Origin: Enterobacteria phage vB_EcoM_IME281
Sequence record: MH051913
DNA length: 64,000 nucleotides
Reading direction: 5' to 3' (one strand)
How positions within the stretch are numbered: position 1 is the first letter of the stretch; each line of letters begins with the position of its first letter. A model generated the notes under the pieces. That model made no database searches. It was not told the origin of the DNA and was given only the letters and a program-made list of their open reading frames with translations. Below, piece after piece: positions 3,279 through 63,547 of this stretch. The translations under genes and the position numbers were made by a program.

Positions 3279-3322
3279 GTTTACAGCAAGATTCTCACAT
3301 GTTACTATAGACCTATCAAAAC
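3279..3322 (+). promoter_or_regulatory. Early promoter/stem-loop cassette (PeSL-like): GTTTAC -35, TACTATAG -10, ACCTATCAA, flanking inverted repeat
   Basis: tgtttaca…catgttactatagacctatcaaaacatg; IR catgtt/aacatg around the -10. Confidence 0.6.
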
Positions 3323-3337
3323 ATGAGGAGATTAAAA

Positions 3338-3604
3338 ATGAACAAGTTAAACTTTATTCGTACTACTCTTTCCGCTCTTGATAAAGACATCAAAGCTCTG
3401 GTAGAAAAATTCGGTACCAATCCTAACGGTAATGCAGTTAATGCATTGGTTAAGAAATACGAAGCCCTGGCTTATGAAACTGATTTCTGGTGGAACGGTG
3501 AATATTCTACCCATACCAAAGACAAATCCGGTAACTGGCTGAAAATCCAAGAAAATCGTATTGACTTCCGTGATATCATAAACCGTCGAGTTAAGATTGC
3601 ATAG
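3338..3604 (+). CDS. Small hypothetical early protein inserted between gp24 and gp23 on the opposite strand
   Basis: ORF with GAGGAG SD 7 nt upstream of the ATG at 3338; preceded by PeSL-like promoter, followed by hairpin. Confidence 0.5.
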   Translation: MNKLNFIRTTLSALDKDIKALVEKFGTNPNGNAVNALVKKYEALAYETDFWWNGEYSTHTKDKSGNWLKIQENRIDFRDIINRRVKIA

Positions 3605-36124: not shown

Positions 36125-36166
36125 GTTTACAAGGTCTATAGACATGATACTATAGGCCTATCAAAC
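36125..36166 (+). promoter_or_regulatory. PeSL-like early promoter cassette
   Basis: gtttacaaggtctatagacatgatactataggcctatcaa. Confidence 0.6.
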
Positions 36167-36190
36167 CAAACCAACCACATGGAAATCAAA

Positions 36191-36415
36191 ATGAAAACTT
36201 ATCAAGAATTTATTACAGAAGCTAAAAAACACGAAGACCAACTGCCGGTTGTTACAAAAACCTTTGACGGTACATTGGCCGATTTTAAAAAAGTCCCTAG
36301 TGATAGGCTCGCTAAATTGACCGGGAGTATCGGTGAAAAAGATGGCAAGGTCACGTTTTCTGCTCAAGGTACAGCCAATCTTAAAAAACTTTTGAAAGCC
36401 GCTGGCGCAGAATAA
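36191..36415 (+). CDS. CTS-bearing small protein (MKTYQEFITEAKK…)
   Basis: Start chosen at the MKTY methionine (alternative ATG at 36179). Confidence 0.55.
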   Translation: MKTYQEFITEAKKHEDQLPVVTKTFDGTLADFKKVPSDRLAKLTGSIGEKDGKVTFSAQGTANLKKLLKAAGAE

Positions 36416-36691: not shown

Positions 36692-36733
36692 GTTTACAAT
36701 GGGCTTTAGTGATGATACTATAGCCCTATCAAA
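36692..36733 (+). promoter_or_regulatory. PeSL-like early promoter cassette
   Basis: gtttacaatgggctttagtgatgatactatagccctatcaa. Confidence 0.6.
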
Positions 36734-36757
36734 ACAAATGAGTGATTGGAGAATAAA

Positions 36758-36943
36758 ATGAAACGTTGTGAATTAATTAGAAATGTTACTGCACTGACCG
36801 CCGTTACTGCTTTTGGCTTTAGTATGTTTGCAGGATTCATGTTGGATTTGCTTACAACTTCCGAGAATACAATCTCTTTAGTAGTGGCATTCTTAATTGG
36901 TTCAATCTCTTTCGTTATGGATAAAATCTCTAAAGGTGAATAA
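36758..36943 (+). CDS. Small hydrophobic (membrane) protein
   Basis: 61 aa; GGAG SD 6 nt upstream; two hydrophobic segments. Confidence 0.5.
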   Translation: MKRCELIRNVTALTAVTAFGFSMFAGFMLDLLTTSENTISLVVAFLIGSISFVMDKISKGE

Positions 36944-39602: not shown

Positions 39603-40220
39603 ATGAAAACTTACAATGAATTTTTGAACGAAAGCGTTCTGAATGAAGCCGGCGTGCGCATGACTAAAGATATGTGGCAAGCTGCTTATGATAAAATTTC
39701 CGGGACTAAAACCACTACCGAGTTCTTTAAAAACGTTTATGATATGTATGGTTTTGATACTAGTAGCCAGAAAGAATATTACAAAGCTTCCAAAGCTTTT
39801 AAAGATATCGTAGCCGGTGGCTCTACTAAGCCTGCTAAACCTGCTAAAGCTCCTGTTGCTAAACCTGCGGCTCAGCCCAAAGTTGCAGCACCGAAACCTA
39901 CACCTAAACCAGAACCTGTAAAAGAAGCTCCTAAATCTAAAATCAAGTTTGACACCAGCACTATAGTTAAAAAATATAACCAACTGGCTTCTTTAGTTTC
40001 TGAAATCGAATCTGAAACTAAACACCTTGTTCGTGAATTCAACGCTCTTCGTAACGGTCAACACATTAACAACCTGGATACCCCAGACCTGTATCGTCTC
40101 TATCTGACGGTTGAAGGCCTTAAGTATACCCAGCCTATGCGCGAAGAAATCAATAACAAACTTCGCCAAGCGGGCCGCATTGCTGGTGACGCAGCACAGT
40201 TCGAAAAGACTCGTAAATAA
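39603..40220 (+). CDS. CTS-bearing lysine-rich protein with Pro/Ala/Lys linker (IPIII-like candidate internal protein)
   Basis: 205 aa; N-terminal MKTYNEFLNESVL; KPAKPAKAPVAKPAAQPKVAAPKPTPKPEP linker; late promoter upstream. Confidence 0.55.
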   Translation: MKTYNEFLNESVLNEAGVRMTKDMWQAAYDKISGTKTTTEFFKNVYDMYGFDTSSQKEYYKASKAFKDIVAGGSTKPAKPAKAPVAKPAAQPKVAAPKPTPKPEPVKEAPKSKIKFDTSTIVKKYNQLASLVSEIESETKHLVREFNALRNGQHINNLDTPDLYRLYLTVEGLKYTQPMREEINNKLRQAGRIAGDAAQFEKTRK

Positions 40221-40224
40221 TGAA

Positions 40225-40245
40225 AGGAGACTTCGGTCTCCTTTT
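40225..40245 (+). terminator. UUCG hairpin terminator (aggagac-ttcg-gtctcct + TTT)
   Basis: 7-bp stem with CTTCGG loop. Confidence 0.6.
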
Positions 40246-40279
40246 AGGGGGTTTAATCTAAAAATAATTTCACAAAGTT

Positions 40280-40322
40280 GTTTACACCTCCTTTAAACAT
40301 GATACTATAGACCTATCAAAAC
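40280..40322 (+). promoter_or_regulatory. PeSL-like early promoter cassette
   Basis: gtttacacctcctttaaacatgatactatagacctatcaaaac. Confidence 0.6.
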
Positions 40323-40343
40323 AACAGAGTGAAGGAGAGTAAA

Positions 40344-40607
40344 ATGGATAATTATGGTGAATTGTTTAATTTCTTTATGAAATGCGTTCCTGAAGAATTT
40401 GGTGCTACTGTTAACGATATTAAAGTTATCGGTCCTGAACACCCAGTGTATGAAACCTATGCAGTAATGGGTAATGAAGATGGACAGTGGTATACAATTA
40501 AAGTTGTGATTAGTATGTTCTCAGCTGAAGGCTACGCCAAATCGTCTACCAAAGTTTATCATGATAACGATTTTGATGCGGAAGAGTATTTCAATAATAT
40601 GAAATAA
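40344..40607 (+). CDS. Hypothetical protein
   Basis: AAGGAGAG SD upstream of ATG; 87 aa. Confidence 0.5.
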   Translation: MDNYGELFNFFMKCVPEEFGATVNDIKVIGPEHPVYETYAVMGNEDGQWYTIKVVISMFSAEGYAKSSTKVYHDNDFDAEEYFNNMK

Positions 40608-40609
40608 TT

Positions 40610-40650
40610 GTTTACATGGGCTCATGATTAAGATATTATGAGCCCATAAT
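40610..40650 (+). promoter_or_regulatory. PeSL-like early promoter (variant stem tgggctcat…atgagccca)
   Basis: gtttacatgggctcatgattaagatattatgagccca. Confidence 0.55.
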
Positions 40651-40664
40651 TTGAGGAGAACATA

Positions 40665-41063
40665 ATGAATATCGAAGATAAAGAAATGCAAGAGTTGTAT
40701 AATTCATTAACGCCTGAACAACAAAAAGCTGCCAAAGAATTAGAGAAAGCTCTTGCTTTCAACTTGGCAAAAACTGATTGGGCTGCCATGTATGAAGAAA
40801 AAACTAGATTAGAACTTGAAGCTGCTGAGAGAAATGAATGGATTGTCGAAACCAAGATTTCTGATGGTGGTTGCTCTGTTGAGGTGTCAGCTGTAGTTAA
40901 AGGCACTCATGGCGAAAAATCATGGGGTTGGCATAATGAAGCAAACAAACATATTGTTCTCTCAACGTCAAAAACTTATGGCCAAAGGGCTCCTGTATCC
41001 AAAGCTATTATTAAGCAAGCTCAATGGGAAGCCAATGAAATCTGCCTCGCAAAAATGAAATAA
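40665..41063 (+). CDS. Hypothetical protein
   Basis: 132 aa; GAGGAG SD. Confidence 0.5.
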   Translation: MNIEDKEMQELYNSLTPEQQKAAKELEKALAFNLAKTDWAAMYEEKTRLELEAAERNEWIVETKISDGGCSVEVSAVVKGTHGEKSWGWHNEANKHIVLSTSKTYGQRAPVSKAIIKQAQWEANEICLAKMK

Positions 41064-44153: not shown

Positions 44154-44483
44154 ATGCATAAAGATTCAGTATTCAAATATCTTTTGAAAACAGATAAAGA
44201 ATTCTATATGAATGGGCAAGCTTTCTTGTTCGTTCGTGGTAAACGTGAGATGTTTTACAAATGCGACCTCTCAATGCACCATCATATGTATCACACCCAT
44301 GGCGAGCCTATACTGGGGTTCTCTGGTGACGAAACTAGACGTATAGCTATGTACTACGACCATTTTAAGCTCAATGATTGTGGTGACAACGCTTTGGTCT
44401 GGAATCCATCTTGGCGTCGTTGGGATACGGTAGACAACGATAAATTATTTTTAGAATATTGCAGAAGTGATGTACAGCTCTAA
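44154..44483 (+). CDS. Hypothetical His-rich protein
   Basis: AGGAGG SD; 109 aa. Confidence 0.45.
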   Translation: MHKDSVFKYLLKTDKEFYMNGQAFLFVRGKREMFYKCDLSMHHHMYHTHGEPILGFSGDETRRIAMYYDHFKLNDCGDNALVWNPSWRRWDTVDNDKLFLEYCRSDVQL

Positions 44484-44526
44484 AAATACGTGTTACTATT
44501 ACCCTACACAAACATGAGGAGAACAT

Positions 44527-44766
44527 ATGTGGTATTACGCTCCGATGTCCGATAAGTCTAATGAACCGGTACGCATTACTCGTGCCAAGTTTAAAAAGAT
44601 TTATGGCTTTGCTTATAAGAAGTCTGATTACGGTGTTCGTTTTGAAGATGCTCACTGTATCAATGATCCTTATGCAGAAGAAATCTCTAATGAGATAATT
44701 CCTATCGTTGAGAGTAATTCCAATGATATGTGGGAATTACATAATACTTACGTTGCCGAAATTTAA
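44527..44766 (+). CDS. Hypothetical protein
   Basis: 79 aa; GAGGAG SD. Confidence 0.45.
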   Translation: MWYYAPMSDKSNEPVRITRAKFKKIYGFAYKKSDYGVRFEDAHCINDPYAEEISNEIIPIVESNSNDMWELHNTYVAEI

Positions 44767-45757: not shown

Positions 45758-45799
45758 GTGTACAAGGTCTATAGGTGTGATACTATAGACCTATCAAAA
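45758..45799 (+). promoter_or_regulatory. PeSL-like early promoter cassette (GTGTAC -35 variant)
   Basis: gtgtacaaggtctataggtgtgatactatagacctatcaa; stem ggtctatag/ctatagacc. Confidence 0.55.
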
Positions 45800-45823
45800 C
45801 AACAGAGTGAAATGGAGAATAAA

Positions 45824-46039
45824 ATGAAACTTTCTAACCAAGCAATCAACATGTTAAACGAAGTTCGTGCAGCTGGTGCTAAATGCCTGATGGTTAACAC
45901 TCGTGACGGTGACCTTCGTCAAGCATTTGGTGAATTGAAATCTGCTGACCTGGTTAAATGTTCAGTTGGTATTGGTAACGCACTTCGTGTATCCTTATCC
46001 CCTAAAGGTAAAATGTACTTTTCAACAAAAAGTAAGTGA
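45824..46039 (+). CDS. Small hypothetical protein
   Basis: GGAG SD; 71 aa. Confidence 0.45.
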   Translation: MKLSNQAINMLNEVRAAGAKCLMVNTRDGDLRQAFGELKSADLVKCSVGIGNALRVSLSPKGKMYFSTKSK

Positions 46040-48001: not shown

Positions 48002-48031
48002 TATAAATACCTCCTATACTCAGGAGGTATT

Positions 48032-48526
48032 ATGGATATTTTTGATATGTTACGTCAAGACGAAGGTCTTGATTTAAATCTTTATAAAGACACTGAAGGT
48101 TATTGGACTATTGGTATTGGCCAGTTAGTTACCAAGAACCCATCTAAAGATGTTGCTCGTGCTGAACTTGATAAGCTTATGGGCCGAGTTTGTAATGGTC
48201 GTATTACTATGGCTGAAGCCGAACAACTCTTTAACCGATCGGTTGAAAATGCTCGTAGAGCTATTCTGCGTAATCCTAAATTGAAACCTGTTTACGATGT
48301 ATTGGACGAAGTTCGTCGTTGTGCTTTAATTAACATGGTCTTCCAAATGGGTGAAGCAGGTGTAGCAGGGTTCACTAACTCTTTACGTATGCTCCAACAG
48401 AAACGTTGGAACGATGCGGCAGTTAACCTGGCTCAATCCCGTTGGTATAAACAAACCCCTAATCGTGCTAAGCGCGTGATTTCAACATTTAAAACAGGTA
48501 CTTGGAAAGCATATGAAAACTTATAA
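48032..48526 (+). CDS. e: Endolysin (T4 lysozyme family)
   Basis: 164 aa; about 75% identical to recalled T4 lysozyme; Glu11, Asp20, Thr26 present. Confidence 0.95.
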
Positions 48527-48911: not shown

Positions 48912-48960
48912 GTTTACTTCTCCTGTAGGCATGATACTATAGACCTATCAACTACAGGAG
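48912..48960 (+). promoter_or_regulatory. PeSL-like early promoter cassette with 9-bp stem ctcctgtag/ctacaggag
   Basis: gtttacttctcctgtaggcatgatactatagacctatcaactacaggag. Confidence 0.65.
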
Positions 48961-48969
48961 ATTAAAAAA

Positions 48970-49386
48970 ATGACTCGTATCAACCTTACCTTAGTATCTG
49001 AATTGGCTGACCAACACTTAATGGCTGAATATCGTGAATTACCACGTGTTTTCGGTGCAGTTCGTAAGCATGTTGCTAACGGTAAACGTGTTCGTGATTT
49101 TAAAATCAGTCCTACTTTTATCCTTGGCACAGGCCATGTTACATTCTTTTACGATAAGCTCGAATTTTTACGTAAGCGACAAATTGAGCTTATAGCCGAA
49201 TGTTTAAAACGTGGTTTTAATATCAAGGATACTACGGTCCAGGACATTAGTGATATTCCTCAGGAATTCCGTGGTGATTATGTTCCTCACGAAGCTTCTA
49301 TCGCTATTTCACAAGCCCGTTTAGACGAAAAAATTGCACAGCGCCCTACCTGGTACAAACATTATGGTAAGGCTATTTACGCTTAA
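48970..49386 (+). CDS. denV: Endonuclease V (pyrimidine-dimer DNA glycosylase)
   Basis: 138 aa; N-terminus [28 protein letters not shown]… matches recalled T4 DenV. Confidence 0.9.
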
Positions 49387-49428
49387 TTAAATCCGTGATA
49401 GAATACTTCTATCAACTTAAGGAATAAT

Positions 49429-49728
49429 ATGAAAACTTATCAAGAATTTATTACAGAAGCCAAAGCCCCTAAAGCATTTCAAATTGGAGTCCAAGGCACT
49501 TTAGACCAAGAATATGTTGACGCTATTGTAGCAAGCCTCGGTAAACAAGGTGTACAAGTGGATTTGGTTGATTTTACTAAAGGCAACACTTTTAATATTG
49601 TTACATCTAAAGGCTCTTTAGCTAAAGTTAAAAAGGCCTTTGGTGTAGCCCAAGCATACGAAATCGACCACTCTGAATTAGAAAATAAAGGTCGCCAGAA
49701 TACAATTAAAGGTTCTGGTTCTTTCTAA
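49429..49728 (+). CDS. CTS-bearing protein (MKTYQEFITEAKAP…), candidate internal protein
   Basis: 99 aa. Confidence 0.6.
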   Translation: MKTYQEFITEAKAPKAFQIGVQGTLDQEYVDAIVASLGKQGVQVDLVDFTKGNTFNIVTSKGSLAKVKKAFGVAQAYEIDHSELENKGRQNTIKGSGSF

Positions 49729-51199: not shown

Positions 51200-51247
51200 G
51201 TTTACATCTCCTGTAGACGTGGTACTATAGACCTATCAACTACAGGA
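51200..51247 (+). promoter_or_regulatory. PeSL-like early promoter cassette (stem ctcctgtag/ctacaggag)
   Basis: gtttacatctcctgtagacgtggtactatagacctatcaactacaggag. Confidence 0.65.
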
Positions 51248-51256
51248 GATTACAAA

Positions 51257-51715
51257 ATGTCAGAAATTAATTCAGAAGTATTCATCCGCCGCAACAAATT
51301 ACGTCGTCAGTTCGAAACCGAATTTCGTGAACTTAACGCGTCCATCAAAAAAGCCGCCATTAAGAGCGGTGTCCCAGCTTTCTTTATTAAGTACTCTAAT
51401 CACTTGTTGGACCGTGCTATCCAACGTGAAATTGACGAAAAATATGTTTTCTCTTTGTTCAAGAAGCTCCATAACCATGTTAAAGAAATCCATGAATTTT
51501 TAATCCAGGAGCCTCTTCCTGACATAGAATCTGAAATTGTCCCAGGTAAAGTGTATCGTCCACTGCGTCTCGAGATTACTGATAAAACCTTATGGTTGGG
51601 TATGACCGTAGATCGTAAACATCCTGATAAAGGATATTCATTAAAATGTCGTATGGCATTTGTTAACTCTAAACGTTTAGAAGGTAAAACCAGCACGAAA
51701 GTAATCTATCTTTAA
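51257..51715 (+). CDS. regB: RegB-like endoribonuclease
   Basis: 152 aa; EVFIRRNKLRR.FE.EFR…LLDRAIQREIDE.YVF…RLEITD…LWLG…CRMA matches recalled T4 RegB. Confidence 0.75.
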   Translation: MSEINSEVFIRRNKLRRQFETEFRELNASIKKAAIKSGVPAFFIKYSNHLLDRAIQREIDEKYVFSLFKKLHNHVKEIHEFLIQEPLPDIESEIVPGKVYRPLRLEITDKTLWLGMTVDRKHPDKGYSLKCRMAFVNSKRLEGKTSTKVIYL

Positions 51716-55282: not shown

Positions 55283-55286
55283 TCAA

Positions 55287-55314
55287 AGGTCTCACTTCGG
55301 TGGGACCTTTTTTC
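55287..55314 (+). terminator. UUCG hairpin terminator (aggtctcac-ttcg-gtgggacct + TTTTTT)
   Basis: 9-bp stem, T-run. Confidence 0.7.
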
Positions 55315-55322
55315 GTTTAGGT

Positions 55323-55362
55323 GTTTACTTCCTCTAGGAACGTGATACTATAGACCTATCAA
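55323..55362 (+). promoter_or_regulatory. PeSL-like early promoter cassette
   Basis: gtttacttcctctaggaacgtgatactatagacctatcaac. Confidence 0.6.
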
Positions 55363-55379
55363 CTAATGAGGAGAACAGT

Positions 55380-55616
55380 ATGAAACTTACAAGTACTACG
55401 GTTTCATTGGAATATGAAATCAATAACCGCCTCCTTGAGATTAAGATATTCGACGACCGAAGTATCTTTGCTGACTACCGAGGGTACAGAATTCGCCTAG
55501 AAAAGGACGAGCTCAAGGAACCACGGCTCCTTAAAGACACATTAAAGGGATGTGGGTGTAAGCTGAAGACCACTCAAGCCCAAGAATTAATTTCTACTAT
55601 CAACAAATACTGGTGA
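55380..55616 (+). CDS. Small hypothetical protein
   Basis: 78 aa; GAGGAG SD. Confidence 0.45.
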   Translation: MKLTSTTVSLEYEINNRLLEIKIFDDRSIFADYRGYRIRLEKDELKEPRLLKDTLKGCGCKLKTTQAQELISTINKYW

Positions 55617-58176: not shown

Positions 58177-58365
58177 ATGAAGGTCTTTTTATCATATGGA
58201 AGACCCCATAAAACCCGACGTTGGTATCTTGAAGCTGTCTGTAAAGAAACCGGACGTCGAGTCAATATCAAGTACGTGTGCAAACCTACGCCTAAACAGA
58301 CAAGACAATTTGTTAACTGGGCTATAAATGATATACGCTTCCATAATTTTTGGAGCGCAATTTAG
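58177..58365 (+). CDS. Small basic hypothetical protein (start ambiguous; alternative 58123)
   Basis: ORF between the NTase gene and a terminator. Confidence 0.4.
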   Translation: MKVFLSYGRPHKTRRWYLEAVCKETGRRVNIKYVCKPTPKQTRQFVNWAINDIRFHNFWSAI

Positions 58366-58386
58366 GAACCTTCGGGTTCCTTTTTT
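58365..58386 (+). terminator. UUCG hairpin terminator (ggaacc-ttcg-ggttcc + TTTTTT)
   Basis: 6-bp stem, T-run. Confidence 0.7.
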
Positions 58387-58405: not shown

Positions 58406-58448
58406 GTTTACACCCTCGTAGAGCATGTTATTATGGACCTATCAAATC
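58406..58448 (+). promoter_or_regulatory. PeSL-like early promoter cassette (TATTATGG -10 variant)
   Basis: gtttacaccctcgtagagcatgttattatggacctatcaaatc. Confidence 0.55.
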
Positions 58449-58471
58449 TACTGAGTGAAATGGAGAATATA

Positions 58472-59452
58472 ATGTTAACTATCAAAATCAACAAAGGTAT
58501 CTATCGCGGTAATGTAATCTCCGGTACGTTCATGAGTTCAGGTAAAACCTGGTTCCCTAATAAAATTCATGAATCCGAAGCTCACCTCGGTGATGGTAAG
58601 GTATTTGTACAGATTGATGGTGTTGAACGTGGTGTATGGGTGTTCAAATGTGACGTTGAAATGGAAGGTGCTGAAGCTCCTGCAATGGTTACTGAATCCG
58701 CTGAAGAAATGAAACATCGCATCAACAAACGTTTTAAAGTAATGAACATGATGACTAACGGAATCATCGATGGTAAAATTCGTTCCCTTATCATCTCTGG
58801 TGCCGCAGGTATTGGTAAAACTTATTCTTTGGATAAAGCATTACAGAATGCCCACGAAAATGAAACTATCGAATATAAATCAATCAACGGAAAGATTAGT
58901 GGAATCGGTCTTTACGAGCAGCTTTGGAATAACCGCGGCCCTAATAGTGTTCTTCTTATCGATGATGTTGATGTATTCTCTGATATGGATATCCTGAACC
59001 TGTTAAAAGCAGCATTGGATACCGGTGAAAAACGTAAGGTGTGCTGGAGCACTTCAAGTTCTTATCTCGATGATAAAAATATCGATAAAGAATTCGAATA
59101 CGAAGGCACCATCGTGTTCATCACCAACGTTGATATTGACCGTGAATTAGAGCGTGGAACTAAACTTGCTCCGCACCTCCAGGCTTTAGTATCTCGTTCA
59201 GTTTACTTAGACCTCGGAGTTCACTCTAACGAAGAGATTATGGTTCGTGTTGAAGACGTTATCCTGTCCACTGATATGATGCAAAATCGAGGTCTGACCG
59301 ATGCTGAGACTTATCAAGCACTGGCATGGATGAAGGCTAATGTATCTCGTCTTCGTAACGTATCATTACGTACAGCTCTTTATCTGGCGGACTTCATTGC
59401 CACCGATAAAAATGACTGGAACGAAATTGCTGAAGTTACACTTCTGAAATAA
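58472..59452 (+). CDS. P-loop ATPase with about 80-aa N-terminal domain
   Basis: Start at ATG after GGAG SD; Walker A GAAGIGKTY, Walker B VLLIDDVD. Confidence 0.55.
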   Translation: MLTIKINKGIYRGNVISGTFMSSGKTWFPNKIHESEAHLGDGKVFVQIDGVERGVWVFKCDVEMEGAEAPAMVTESAEEMKHRINKRFKVMNMMTNGIIDGKIRSLIISGAAGIGKTYSLDKALQNAHENETIEYKSINGKISGIGLYEQLWNNRGPNSVLLIDDVDVFSDMDILNLLKAALDTGEKRKVCWSTSSSYLDDKNIDKEFEYEGTIVFITNVDIDRELERGTKLAPHLQALVSRSVYLDLGVHSNEEIMVRVEDVILSTDMMQNRGLTDAETYQALAWMKANVSRLRNVSLRTALYLADFIATDKNDWNEIAEVTLLK

Positions 59453-59805: not shown

Positions 59806-59853
59806 GTTTACATCTCCAGTAGAAATGATACTATAGACCTATCAACTACTGGA
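59806..59853 (+). promoter_or_regulatory. PeSL-like early promoter cassette (stem ctccagtag/ctactggag)
   Basis: gtttacatctccagtagaaatgatactatagacctatcaactactggag. Confidence 0.65.
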
Positions 59854-59860
59854 GGTTATC

Positions 59861-60385
59861 ATGAACGCTAAAGATATTTTTTCACTGATTAATTTTAACA
59901 ATGGTAATTTCAAATCTGAAAAACAAAGCAAGTTCTTTAACGACGTTGCTTGTGGTAATGAGATTACCGTATCTGGAGGAGAGATTTACAAAAGCCGTTG
60001 GAACTGGATTGTTGTCATTGATTCAGTTGGTATTGTAGAGCTCTATAAAAACACTAACAAAAAACGTACTCTTCACTGGAGTCGTGAAACCAATCAAGCT
60101 TATCAAGCTGAACGTAACAAACGTTTAATGCCTACCGAATCTGACCTGGCAAACGTTAAATCTGATATCGCTTATTTCGATAATCTGATTGCCGAGGAAC
60201 AAGCGGTTATTGATAAGTTTGATGAAATCAAAGCTTGTAAAGAGATTCCTGAATTCATGCGGGAATCAGTAAATGAACAGTACGCCCTCACTTCAGGTCG
60301 TATCGAGCAGTACAAATCACAACGAGCTGAACGCCAAGCTCTGCTTCAGAAATTTGAAGAGCGTTTAAAGACGGTTCTCGCATAA
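59861..60385 (+). CDS. Hypothetical protein
   Basis: 174 aa. Confidence 0.45.
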   Translation: MNAKDIFSLINFNNGNFKSEKQSKFFNDVACGNEITVSGGEIYKSRWNWIVVIDSVGIVELYKNTNKKRTLHWSRETNQAYQAERNKRLMPTESDLANVKSDIAYFDNLIAEEQAVIDKFDEIKACKEIPEFMRESVNEQYALTSGRIEQYKSQRAERQALLQKFEERLKTVLA

Positions 60386-62478: not shown

Positions 62479-62520
62479 GTTTACATCCAAGGACGGATGG
62501 AGTATAATCCTTTTATCAAC
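62479..62520 (+). promoter_or_regulatory. Early promoter (GTTTAC -35, TATAAT -10 in aagga…tcctt stem)
   Basis: gtttacatccaaggacggatggagtataatcctt. Confidence 0.55.
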
Positions 62521-62536
62521 TACTGAGGAGAATATC

Positions 62537-63547
62537 ATGACCCGTACTGAATACATCAATGCCTTTACTAAGTATATCACTGACAATACCCCTCCATTAA
62601 CACCGTATGAGGTGATAGTTTCTAATATCAATAAATGGGTAGACCAAATTGATAAAGCATTATCCAATTGTTTCAAAGATGAAATCGAAAAGATTGCAGG
62701 CCGTTTGTTTATTTCTGATATCGTAGATACATTTAAAGGTTCTCGACTGCTTTCACGGTTGGTCAATAAGGATATCCTTTCAGAGTTTGGCAAAGAGAAA
62801 CACCCAGGTTCCAGCCACGTTGTTAGCTACCAATGGTTTGGTGATGTTTTAAAAAGCTATATCAAAATGAAAGGTACCGACCCTAAGGGCTTATTTCCTT
62901 TACGTTGGGCCGGTGAATTTAAGGCTAACTCCGCATTAATTCTAAAAGCAGCAACCAAAACCTTTGTAAAGGGTGATTGTCGTACTATCCACCCTATGGC
63001 TGATGGCATGATTAAAACAAACAACTATAAAGGGAAGGTGCTTATTTCTATTATTTGGTCGCCTAGTTGGAAACCTAAAGAAGTTGAAGTTTCGAAATAC
63101 CAAGATATTTCCTACAATACCCTGAATATTGTAGAACAAGCTTTAGCTTTGATGGATACAGTAGAGAAATATGAGATTCAAGAAATCAACCACCACTTAG
63201 GCTGGAAAGGATATGAAGTTTTAGTAACAGTTCGCGAAATCAAATGCCCTGTTCCAAAAACCGACGCTGAAATTTACCAAGAAAAATGTGAGGAAATTGT
63301 GAACACTGATAAAGAGCCTGCAACCTTAGAAGACTTGATTGATGAGCTGAATGGCCCAAGGCTACTGGCCTGTGCACCAATTACTAAATCCAAGCCGCCA
63401 GAAGTAGTTGCTCTGGAAAAAGCATATAAAGATGCCCTTGCTATCAACAAAAAACTGACCGGACAATATACTGCTGCCAAGAAACTTTGGGAAGAGTCTA
63501 CCAATCGTCTGGATAAACTGGAACAAGCCCTGGAGCTGTTGAAATGA
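62537..63547 (+). CDS. Hypothetical protein
   Basis: 336 aa; GAGGAG SD. Confidence 0.5.
   Translation: MTRTEYINAFTKYITDNTPPLTPYEVIVSNINKWVDQIDKALSNCFKDEIEKIAGRLFISDIVDTFKGSRLLSRLVNKDILSEFGKEKHPGSSHVVSYQWFGDVLKSYIKMKGTDPKGLFPLRWAGEFKANSALILKAATKTFVKGDCRTIHPMADGMIKTNNYKGKVLISIIWSPSWKPKEVEVSKYQDISYNTLNIVEQALALMDTVEKYEIQEINHHLGWKGYEVLVTVREIKCPVPKTDAEIYQEKCEEIVNTDKEPATLEDLIDELNGPRLLACAPITKSKPPEVVALEKAYKDALAINKKLTGQYTAAKKLWEESTNRLDKLEQALELLK

What the first reader, a model, noticed from the sequence alone, without database searches (positions are those of the whole stretch)
51257..51715. RegB-like endoribonuclease in a genome whose early cassettes carry GGAG Shine-Dalgarno sequences
The 152-aa ORF matches T4 RegB, which cleaves GGAG in early mRNA Shine-Dalgarno regions. 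Many PeSL-associated leaders here have GGAG or GAGGAG as SD, and the conserved stem arm ctacaGGAGatt itself contains GGAG. The cassettes may therefore be built-in RegB targets that coordinate shut-off of early genes.
Basis: partly seen in the sequence, partly recalled or inferred. Interest (0 to 1): 0.4.

Follow-up and report, generated by a model that had tools for sequence, protein, structure and literature searches.

The report
Ordinary regB gene with GGAG leaders
The ORF is the already annotated regB endoribonuclease of a JS10-like T4-type coliphage, and its early-gene leaders carry RegB-type GGAG sites just as in T4, so the finding is ordinary, apart from a conserved hairpin that hides the regB ribosome-binding site on read-through transcripts.

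Summary
ORF 51257-51715 (+) is regB. It scores Pfam PF10715 E 2e-69 and matches the T4 RegB structure 2HX6 at E 8e-51. It is 100% identical to the annotated protein of phage dhaeg and sits in vs.4-regB-vs.1-vs synteny.

The window is a Dhakavirus (JS10-like). I found 15 T4-type early promoters on the + strand. The first gene behind 12 of them uses GGAG as its Shine-Dalgarno sequence, against 5/51 internal early-region genes and 8/26 late genes. The 7 nt after these GGAGs fit the published RegB/S1 consensus GGAGRAYARAA far better than other GGAGs do. So "early leaders are probable RegB targets" is supported, but this is the established T4 paradigm.

The stem-arm part of the idea is weaker:
- The 5' arm lies between -35 and -10, so transcripts from the cassette's own promoter lack it.
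- Only read-through RNA can form the stem, and published work shows structure blocks RegB.
- T4 has the same CTACAGGAG cassette at denV, and that site is RegB-resistant in vivo.
- The regB site here has a C at position 9, never seen in cleaved T4 sites.

The stem is better explained as masking of the Shine-Dalgarno sequence. It is conserved with covariation at regB across T4-like genera.

The parts
51257..51715 (+). regB coding sequence (152 aa plus stop)
   Evidence: PF10715 E 2e-69; 2HX6 E 8e-51; 99.3% identity to JS10 regB. Equivalents of T4 H48, D51 and R52 are present (H49, D52, R53).
51200..51228 (+). T4-type early promoter of regB: -35 GTTTAC 51200-51205, 17-nt spacer, TGn 51220-51222, -10 TACTAT 51223-51228; inferred start near 51235
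   Evidence: Same architecture as 9 other cassettes sharing TATAGACCTATCAA and as T4 early promoters (PMC2988021). The start site is inferred, not mapped.
51206..51216 (+). 5' arm ATCTCCTGTAG (anti-Shine-Dalgarno sequence inside the promoter spacer)
   Evidence: Spacer-leader duplex is -17.7 kcal/mol against a mean of -5.6 for shuffled spacers, p 0.001.
51240..51250 (+). 3' arm CTACAGGAGAT containing the regB Shine-Dalgarno sequence
51245..51255 (+). Candidate RegB/S1 site GGAGATTACAA (autoregulatory site by analogy with T4); 5/7 match to RAYARAA, with C at position 9
   Evidence: consensus from PMC1702504. regB Shine-Dalgarno sequences of 35 T4-related phages are GGAG (GGAU in RB49) and were cleaved whenever tested (PMC3014915).
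48912..48969 (+). denV cassette: GTTTAC 48912-48917, -10 48935-48940, arms 48919-48928 / 48952-48961, site GGAGATTAAAA 48957-48967, ATG 48970
   Evidence: The orthologous T4 cassette is nearly identical.
59806..59860 (+). nrdC.8 cassette: GTTTAC 59806-59811, -10 59829-59834, arms 59812-59822 / 59846-59856 (CTCCAGTAG / CTACTGGAG, a compensatory T:A to A:T change relative to regB and denV), site GGAGGTTATCA 59851-59861
36748..36758 (+). Early-leader site GGAGAATAAAA, a perfect match to the consensus (promoter at 36693)
45814..45824 (+). Early-leader site GGAGAATAAAA, a perfect match to the consensus (promoter at 45759)
40334..40344 (+). Early-leader site GGAGAGTAAAA (promoter at 40281; spacer CCTCCTT pairs with AAGGAGA)
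40655..40665 (+). Early-leader site GGAGAACATAA (promoter at 40611)
3327..3337 (+). Early-leader site GGAGATTAAAA (promoter at 3280; small + strand ORF inside the late-gene cluster)
55370..55380 (+). Early-leader site GGAGAACAGTA (promoter at 55324)
58462..58472 (+). Early-leader site GGAGAATATAA, nrdC.10 (promoter at 58407)
44518..44528 (+). Early-leader site GGAGAACATAT (promoter at 44471)
62527..62537 (+). Early-leader site GGAGAATATCA, nrdC.4 (promoter at 62480)

Best explanation
The ORF is the regB gene of a Dhakavirus (JS10-like T4-type coliphage). By homology, RegB is the S1-dependent endoribonuclease that cuts GG^AG in single-stranded, A-rich translation-initiation regions of early mRNAs.

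As in T4, regB is transcribed from a strong UP/-35/TGn/-10 early promoter and has GGAG as its own Shine-Dalgarno sequence, which in T4 is the autoregulatory cut site. Most early promoters in the window (12 of 15) come with a short leader of about 20-30 nt. Its Shine-Dalgarno sequence is GGAG followed by a RAYARAA-like tract, so these leaders are probable RegB substrates. Internal genes of the same operons mostly use GGAA or other motifs, which are poor substrates in T4. Late genes that use GGAG have C-rich, non-consensus contexts.

The stems at denV, regB and nrdC.8 are a separate layer. An anti-Shine-Dalgarno sequence sits inside the promoter spacer. Transcripts started at that promoter lack it and expose GGAG to both ribosomes and RegB. 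Read-through transcripts from upstream carry both arms and bury the Shine-Dalgarno sequence, so they should be untranslated and protected from RegB.

Shown here: identity, synteny, promoter and leader architecture, GGAG enrichment and context, predicted pairing, covariation. Inferred: transcription start sites, actual cleavage, translational masking.
For: Identity. H48, D51 and R52 equivalents are invariant in 36 unique RegB proteins.

Promoters: ten + strand copies of TATAGACCTATCAA (at most 1 mismatch), each preceded by an AT-rich tract, GTTTAC, 17 nt and TGnTACTAT; 15 promoters in all.

GGAG counts and context.

Folding: GGAG is paired with P about 1.0 in read-through RNA at denV, regB, nrdC.8 and orf40344. 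Own-promoter leaders fold at 0 to -3.7 kcal/mol.

Spacer-leader duplexes of -15 to -22 kcal/mol (p <= 0.002 against shuffled spacers) occur at denV, regB and nrdC.8 in both the window and T4, with different arm sequences.

Across 33 unique regB upstream regions from IMG/VR, 29 have a GGAG Shine-Dalgarno sequence, and 21 of the 31 with a promoter show significant spacer-leader pairing. The six positions flanking the TCC/GGA core pair at 4.64/6 with their own partner and 3.06/6 with partners from other lineages (permutation p = 5e-5).

Literature: RegB consensus, protection by structure and autoregulation (PMC1702504, PMC3014915).
Against: - No cleavage data exist for this phage.
- Position 6 is U rather than the well-conserved A in four leaders. 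The regB site has C at position 9, and the nrdC.8 site matches only 4/7. By T4 rules the three stem-arm cassettes may be weak substrates.
- T4 denV and mobD.5 leaders with GGAG are RegB-resistant (PMC1702504).
- This RegB has K where T4 has H68, one of two histidines needed for full activity in T4.
- Cassettes are paralogous, so GGAG could be inherited with the cassette rather than selected separately.
- There is no overall GGAG depletion or enrichment on the early sense strand.
Confidence: 0.8

Rival explanations
1. GGAG in the leaders is only a strong ribosome-binding site that travels with duplicated or mobile promoter cassettes. RegB plays no special part, and the A-rich tract is the usual unstructured spacer of good initiation regions.
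For: Cassettes are clearly paralogous. A-rich spacers also follow GGAA Shine-Dalgarno sequences of internal genes, for example GGAAAATATTA three times. T4 denV and mobD.5 GGAG leaders resist RegB. There is no strand-wide GGAG bias.
Against: The GGAG:GGAA ratio is 12:3 in promoter-proximal genes and 5:19 in internal genes (Fisher p = 6e-4). Context scores are significantly higher than for internal GGAA and for late GGAG sites. In T4, 24 of 68 tested intergenic GGAG sites with this context are efficiently cut.
Confidence: 0.2
2. The stems are PeSL terminators/attenuators or recombination substrates that act at the DNA or transcription level, as proposed for RB49 and phi1. Their overlap with the Shine-Dalgarno sequence is incidental.
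For: The PeSL papers show that stems can reduce downstream lacZ expression and mediate mini-circle formation (PMC2839356). The window differs from JS10 by gene insertions and deletions next to cassettes (39603-40607; ipIII).
Against: The stems have 23-nt loops and no U tract, and the terminator scan does not flag them. Genuine UUCG-tetraloop terminators exist separately at 55285 and 58364. The 3' arm always covers the Shine-Dalgarno sequence, and pairing is kept by compensatory change across genera. None of the five PeSL stem classes in PMC2839356 has an arm on the Shine-Dalgarno sequence.
Confidence: 0.25
3. This RegB is catalytically impaired or has a changed specificity, because the T4 H68 equivalent is lysine (K69).
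For: T4 RegB is reported to need H48 and H68 for full activity (cited in PMC3014915). The window has K at that column.
Against: The column is variable among 36 unique RegB proteins (H 14, K 11, N 4, R 3, G 2, S 1, Y 1), while H48, D51 and R52 are invariant. The protein is 97-100% conserved within Dhakavirus. Divergent RegBs of RB49, RB69, TuIa and M1 still cut GGAG/U plus an A-rich tract.
Confidence: 0.07

Closest known systems
Bacteriophage T4 RegB endoribonuclease (Pfam PF10715, PDB 2HX6)
   Same: 58% identity over the full length. Same size, same neighbours (vs.4 / vs.1 / vs), an early promoter, a GGAG Shine-Dalgarno sequence on its own mRNA, and H48, D51 and R52 equivalents.
   Different: K replaces T4 H68. 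Its own site is GGAGATTACAA (U at position 6, C at position 9) rather than T4's GGAGAATAACA. No biochemical data exist for the Dhakavirus enzyme.
T4 early promoter/leader units and the RegB/S1 target GG*AGRAYARAA (Durand et al. 2006, PMC1702504)
   Same: UP/-35 GTTTAC/TGn/-10 promoters, short leaders, and GGAG plus an A-rich tract abutting the ATG. Orthologous units occur at denV, regB, nrdC.10, nrdC.8 and nrdC.4 in T4.
   Different: The 3' contexts differ gene by gene. For example, denV is GGAGATTAAAA here but the RegB-resistant GGAGAACACTA in T4.
PeSL promoter-stem-loop cassettes (Arbiol et al. 2010, PMC2839356; Comeau et al. 2014, PMC4122927)
   Same: An AT-rich tract, a sigma-70-type early promoter, a stem-loop, and a Shine-Dalgarno sequence plus ATG at the 3' end. 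Intergenic, repeated, and next to gene-content differences.
   Different: Here the 3' arm is the Shine-Dalgarno sequence itself and the 5' arm lies in the -35/-10 spacer. That arrangement is not among the five stem positions listed there, and those papers never mention RegB or GGAG.
T4 translational hairpins at genes e, soc, 49 and I-TevI
   Same: The Shine-Dalgarno sequence is buried in a helix on long read-through transcripts. A promoter inside the helix gives a short transcript with a free Shine-Dalgarno sequence (PMC3014915). Gene e in this window shows the same arrangement at 48032.
   Different: Those cases use late (or middle) promoters to delay expression. Here the internal promoter is an early one, which would restrict expression to the early period.

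Membership tests
RegB endoribonuclease (PF10715) | Full-length match to the family profile above the curated threshold | tested here: met
   232.6 bits against a cut-off of 27, profile positions 1-147 of 148.
RegB endoribonuclease (PF10715) | Sequence similarity to the solved T4 RegB structure | tested here: met
   2HX6_A E 7.7e-51, residues 4-150 aligned to 3-150.
RegB endoribonuclease (PF10715) | Catalytic His48 and Arg52 of T4 (R52L is the null allele used in PMC1702504) | tested here: met
   H49 and R53 are present. H48, D51 and R52 are invariant in 36 unique homologues.
RegB endoribonuclease (PF10715) | Second histidine (T4 His68) | tested here: not met
   K69 here. The column is variable across the family (H 14, K 11, others 11 of 36), so it does not define the family.
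RegB endoribonuclease (PF10715) | Conserved genomic position (vs.4 - regB - vs.1 - vs) | tested here: met
   JS10 and T4 maps.
RegB endoribonuclease (PF10715) | GG^AG-specific, S1-stimulated cleavage that leaves 5'-OH ends | not testable with these tools
   Requires biochemistry or end mapping.
RegB/S1 target site | GGA invariant with G (rarely U) at position 4, located in an intergenic initiation region | tested here: met
   12 of 15 promoter-proximal leaders.
RegB/S1 target site | A-rich RAYARAA at positions 5-11; C rare; no C at position 9 | tested here: inconclusive
   Nine leaders score 6-7 of 7 or have no C at position 9. The regB site has C at position 9 and the nrdC.8 site scores 4/7.
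RegB/S1 target site | Single-stranded GGAG | tested here: inconclusive
   Predicted unpaired in own-promoter transcripts, but paired (P about 1.0) in read-through RNA at denV, regB, nrdC.8 and orf40344. Start sites are not mapped.
PeSL cassette | Sigma-70-type early promoter with an AT-rich upstream tract, and a Shine-Dalgarno sequence plus ATG at the 3' end | tested here: met
PeSL cassette | Associated stable stem-loop | tested here: met
   Perfect stems of 9-11 bp in 3 cassettes. Spacer-leader pairing reaches p < 0.05 in 7 of 15. Two further cassettes have stems over the -10.
PeSL cassette | Terminator/attenuator activity of the stem | not testable with these tools
   No U tract after the stem, and the consensus scan does not flag them.
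PeSL cassette | Flanks gene insertions/deletions between close relatives | tested here: inconclusive
   orf40344 is bracketed by cassettes and absent from JS10. Only one comparison was made.

The most novel reading that the evidence does not exclude
At regB (and at denV and nrdC.8), an anti-Shine-Dalgarno sequence built into the spacer of the early promoter would make the promoter of origin decide the fate of the mRNA. Short transcripts from the gene's own promoter would be translatable and open to RegB. Read-through transcripts would be silent and RegB-protected. Together with RegB autocleavage, this would confine RegB synthesis to the first minutes of infection. The pairing is kept by compensatory changes in at least ten different arm sequences across T4-like genera. 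I did not find it described in the papers I could read.
Probability: 0.4. Interest if true: 0.45.

Novelty: already known. Interest (0 to 1): 0.22.

Why it matters
The finding as given adds little. regB is annotated in JS10-like phages, and the role of RegB at GGAG Shine-Dalgarno sequences of early mRNAs is a classic T4 result.

Two points are useful:
- The window gives a clean internal contrast. Promoter-proximal genes use GGAG with the consensus context, internal genes use GGAA, and late genes use GGAG with C-rich contexts. This contrast predicts which Dhakavirus mRNAs RegB should cut.
- The promoter-embedded hairpin over the Shine-Dalgarno sequence at regB is widely conserved and shows covariation. 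It is cheap to test and would tie promoter choice to translation and decay in T4-like phages.

Tried and rejected
- Strand-wide GGAG avoidance in early genes: none found (1.47 per kb early sense versus 1.39 per kb late sense; observed/expected 0.93 versus 1.06).
- Generic sigma-70 and terminator scans: totals no higher than in shuffled sequence. These were used only to locate two real terminators and to show that the cassette stems are not terminator-like.
- MAFFT alignment of regB promoter-leaders (A3): it did not keep the Shine-Dalgarno sequences in register, so I did not run RNAalifold or the count of structure pairs on it. I used a partner-permutation test anchored on the TCC/GGA core instead.
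- The 12-mer CTACAGGAGATT with at most 2 mismatches gives 19 hits against 4.9 expected. Most - strand hits lie in late coding sequence and are unrelated to the cassettes.
- Piesiniene 2004, Saida 2003 and Miller 2003 are not held. What I say about them comes from the reviews that cite them.
- JS10 locus L002 could not be read by my scripts, so late-gene start codons come from my own ORF and Shine-Dalgarno heuristic.
- No global RegB cleavage map turned up in the library.

Full report
**What is at the coordinates.** The + strand ORF runs from ATG 51257 to TAA 51713-51715 and encodes 152 aa.
- It matches Pfam REGB_T4 (PF10715) over 147 of 148 profile positions at 232.6 bits, E 2.2e-69.
- It matches the T4 RegB NMR structure 2HX6 at E 7.7e-51.
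- A tblastn against 50,697 phage records finds homologues in 1136 of them. It is 100% identical to the annotated 'site-specific RNA endonuclease' of Escherichia phage dhaeg, 97% to IME08 and 99.3% to JS10 regB.

The surrounding DNA is 93-95% identical to Dhakavirus genomes such as JS10, dhaeg and C6. Gene order is vs.8-vs.7-vs.4-regB-vs.1-vs-tk.4, as in JS10 and T4. Window positions 1 to about 32.5 kb hold late structural genes on the - strand. Positions 32.5-64 kb hold early-type genes on the + strand.

**Active-site residues.** In an 11-genus alignment, and in 36 unique RegB proteins from IMG/VR, the equivalents of T4 H48, D51 and R52 are invariant. Here they are H49, D52 and R53. The equivalent of T4 H68 is K69 here. 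That column is variable (H 14, K 11, N 4, R 3, G 2, S 1, Y 1). I therefore do not read K69 as a sign of inactivity, though T4 work reports that both histidines are needed for full activity (cited in PMC3014915).

**The cassettes.** TATAGACCTATCAA occurs ten times with at most 1 mismatch, always on the + strand and always intergenic. Aligned, each copy shows:
- an AT-rich tract;
- GTTTAC, a 17-nt spacer and TGnTACTAT;
- AGACCTATCAA;
- a leader of 18-36 nt, a Shine-Dalgarno sequence and an ATG.

This is the 'UP/-35/TGn/-10' architecture of T4 early promoters (PMC2988021). A relaxed scan gives 15 such promoters, with TTTAC beginning at 3280, 36126, 36693, 40281, 40611, 41068, 44471, 45759, 48913, 49376, 51201, 55324, 58407, 59807 and 62480. 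T4 has orthologous units at denV, regB, nrdC.10, nrdC.8 and nrdC.4.

**GGAG enrichment.** Shine-Dalgarno motifs by gene class:

| Gene class | n | GGAG | GGAA |
|---|---|---|---|
| First gene behind an early promoter | 15 | 12 | 3 |
| Internal + strand genes | 51 | 5 | 19 |
| Late - strand genes | 26 | 8 | 3 |

- Fisher tests give p = 4e-7 against internal genes, 0.004 against late genes and 4e-6 against both. For GGAG versus GGAA in promoter-proximal against internal genes, p = 6e-4.
- The published strong-site consensus is GG*AGRAYARAA. It must be single-stranded, C is nearly excluded, and GGAA is poorly cut (PMC1702504, PMC3014915).
- The 7 nt after the promoter-proximal GGAGs match RAYARAA at a mean of 5.75/7. 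Other GGAG Shine-Dalgarno sequences score 3.1/7 (Mann-Whitney p = 3e-5) and internal GGAA ones 3.6/7 (p = 2e-5).
- Of 15 window matches to the 11-mer with at most 1 mismatch, 8 abut the ATG of an early leader. Only one other match (6469, in a late gene) carries GGAG on a sense strand.
- Late GGAG Shine-Dalgarno sequences have C-rich contexts such as GGAGGCCCTAT and GGAGACTCCAT.

So most early leaders look like RegB substrates. This is what is known for T4, where 24 of 68 tested intergenic GGAG sites are efficiently cut. Two caveats apply: the cassettes are paralogous, and class assignments depend on my gene calls.

**The stem arm.** Perfect inverted repeats with a 23-nt loop occur in three cassettes:

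| Gene | 5' arm | 3' arm |
|---|---|---|
| denV | TCTCCTGTAG, 48919-48928 | CTACAGGAGA, 48952-48961 |
| regB | ATCTCCTGTAG, 51206-51216 | CTACAGGAGAT, 51240-51250 |
| nrdC.8 | CTCCAGTAG, 59814-59822 | CTACTGGAG, 59846-59854 |

- The nrdC.8 copy differs from the other two by a compensatory T:A to A:T change.
- In every case the 5' arm lies between -35 and -10. It is therefore upstream of any plausible start site, so transcripts from the cassette's own promoter cannot form the stem.
- Folding predicts GGAG paired with P about 1.0 in read-through RNA at denV, regB, nrdC.8 and orf40344, and largely paired at orf3338, orf55380 and nrdC.4. Own-promoter leaders fold at only 0 to -3.7 kcal/mol.
- Structure protects RNA from RegB (PMC3014915), so the stem is the opposite of a built-in target.
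- The stems have no U tract and are not flagged as terminators. Genuine UUCG-tetraloop terminators sit separately at 55285-55310 and 58364-58381.

**Experimental counter-example from T4.** T4 denV has almost the same cassette (gtttacATCTCCTGTAGgtatgatactatagacctatcaaCTACAGGAGAacactaaaATG).
- Its GGAG is resistant to RegB in vivo. The C at position 9 is held responsible.
- Replacing the 7 nt after GGAG with AAUAAAA makes it a good substrate in vivo (PMC1702504).
- The same paper uses the mobD.5 transcript as a RegB-insensitive control and reports T4 nrdC.8 as only moderately cut.

By these rules the window's denV site (GGAGATTAAAA) may be a better substrate than T4's. The regB site (GGAGATTACAA, C at position 9) and the nrdC.8 site (GGAGGTTATCA) are not ideal. 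Against that, regB Shine-Dalgarno sequences of 35 T4-related phages are GGAG (GGAU in RB49), and they were cleaved whenever tested (PMC3014915).

**A conserved hairpin at regB.** This went beyond the original finding.
- Spacer-leader duplexes of -15 to -22 kcal/mol (p <= 0.002 against 1000 spacer shuffles) occur at denV, regB and nrdC.8 in both the window and T4, with different arm sequences at regB and nrdC.8. They also occur at regB of Serratia phage X20, EcS1 and STML-198.
- In 43 IMG/VR loci (33 unique upstream regions), 29 have a GGAG Shine-Dalgarno sequence. Of the 31 with a recognisable promoter, 21 show significant spacer-leader pairing.
- At least ten distinct arm pairs are seen. Examples are TGTAG/CTACA, TTTTAG/CTAAAA, TGTAAG/CTTACA, TCTAGT/ACTAGA, TCTTTA/TAAAGA, TCTTGA/TTAAGA and TCATTT/AAATGA.
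- With the arms anchored only on the TCC/GGA core, the six flanking positions pair at 4.64/6 with their own partner and 3.06/6 with partners from other lineages (permutation p = 5e-5).

This resembles the known T4 hairpins at e, soc, 49 and I-TevI, but with an early promoter inside the helix. The PeSL papers list five stem positions, none with an arm on the Shine-Dalgarno sequence. They never mention RegB or GGAG.

**Verdict.**
GGAG early leaders as RegB targets are probable, but that is the known T4 paradigm.
- The stem arm is better explained as masking of the Shine-Dalgarno sequence on read-through RNA, which would protect the site rather than expose it.
- The gene itself is already known.
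- The only mildly new element is the covarying, promoter-embedded anti-Shine-Dalgarno hairpin at regB. Its function is inferred, not shown.

Noticed in passing
window 39603-40607: Two ORFs (205 aa and 87 aa) lie between the orthologues of JS10 0132 and 0131 and have no JS10 counterpart. The 87-aa ORF is bracketed by early-promoter cassettes at 40281 and 40611, as expected for cassette-mediated gene shuffling. Conversely, JS10 ipIII (between e and 0112) is missing from the window.
   Followed up: partly
window 55285-55310 and 58364-58381: Strong intrinsic terminators with UUCG tetraloops and T tails lie immediately upstream of the early promoters at 55324 and 58407, forming composite terminator-promoter units.
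   Followed up: partly
window 48003-48034: Upstream of the lysozyme gene e: a late-promoter TATAAATA is followed by CCTCC...GGAGG pairing over the Shine-Dalgarno sequence, the same arrangement as the classic T4 gene e translational hairpin.
   Followed up: no
window 36126-36230 and 49376-49460: Two early promoters drive paralogous genes that both begin MKTYQEFITEA (internal-head-protein-like). Both use GGAA rather than GGAG, which would make them poor RegB substrates by T4 rules.
   Followed up: no
window 36133-36158 and 45765-45792: A different stem class: the promoter spacer AGGTCTATAG pairs with CTATAG(A/G)CCT over the -10 and start region and does not include the Shine-Dalgarno sequence.
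   Followed up: partly
window 3280-3604: An 88-aa + strand ORF with a complete early cassette and GGAGATTAAAA leader sits inside the - strand late-gene cluster. It is probably the counterpart of JS10 EpJS10_0170, judged by position only.
   Followed up: no
window 21948, 22961, 25528, 31509 (- strand): CTACAGGTGA-like 12-mers recur within late-gene coding sequence. They inflate the hit count for the stem-arm motif but are not cassettes.
   Followed up: no
window 51461-51463 (RegB K69): The residue aligned with T4 RegB His68 is lysine in Dhakavirus and varies across the family, while a histidine is common three residues later (T4 K71 column: H in 18 of 36).
   Followed up: partly
L017/L021 (Marfavirus-like) and L034 (X20-like), regB upstream: A few regB genes have GGAA or GGAU rather than GGAG as their Shine-Dalgarno sequence. 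In the Marfavirus type, a GGAG sits in the promoter spacer and the stem surrounds the -10 instead.
   Followed up: no
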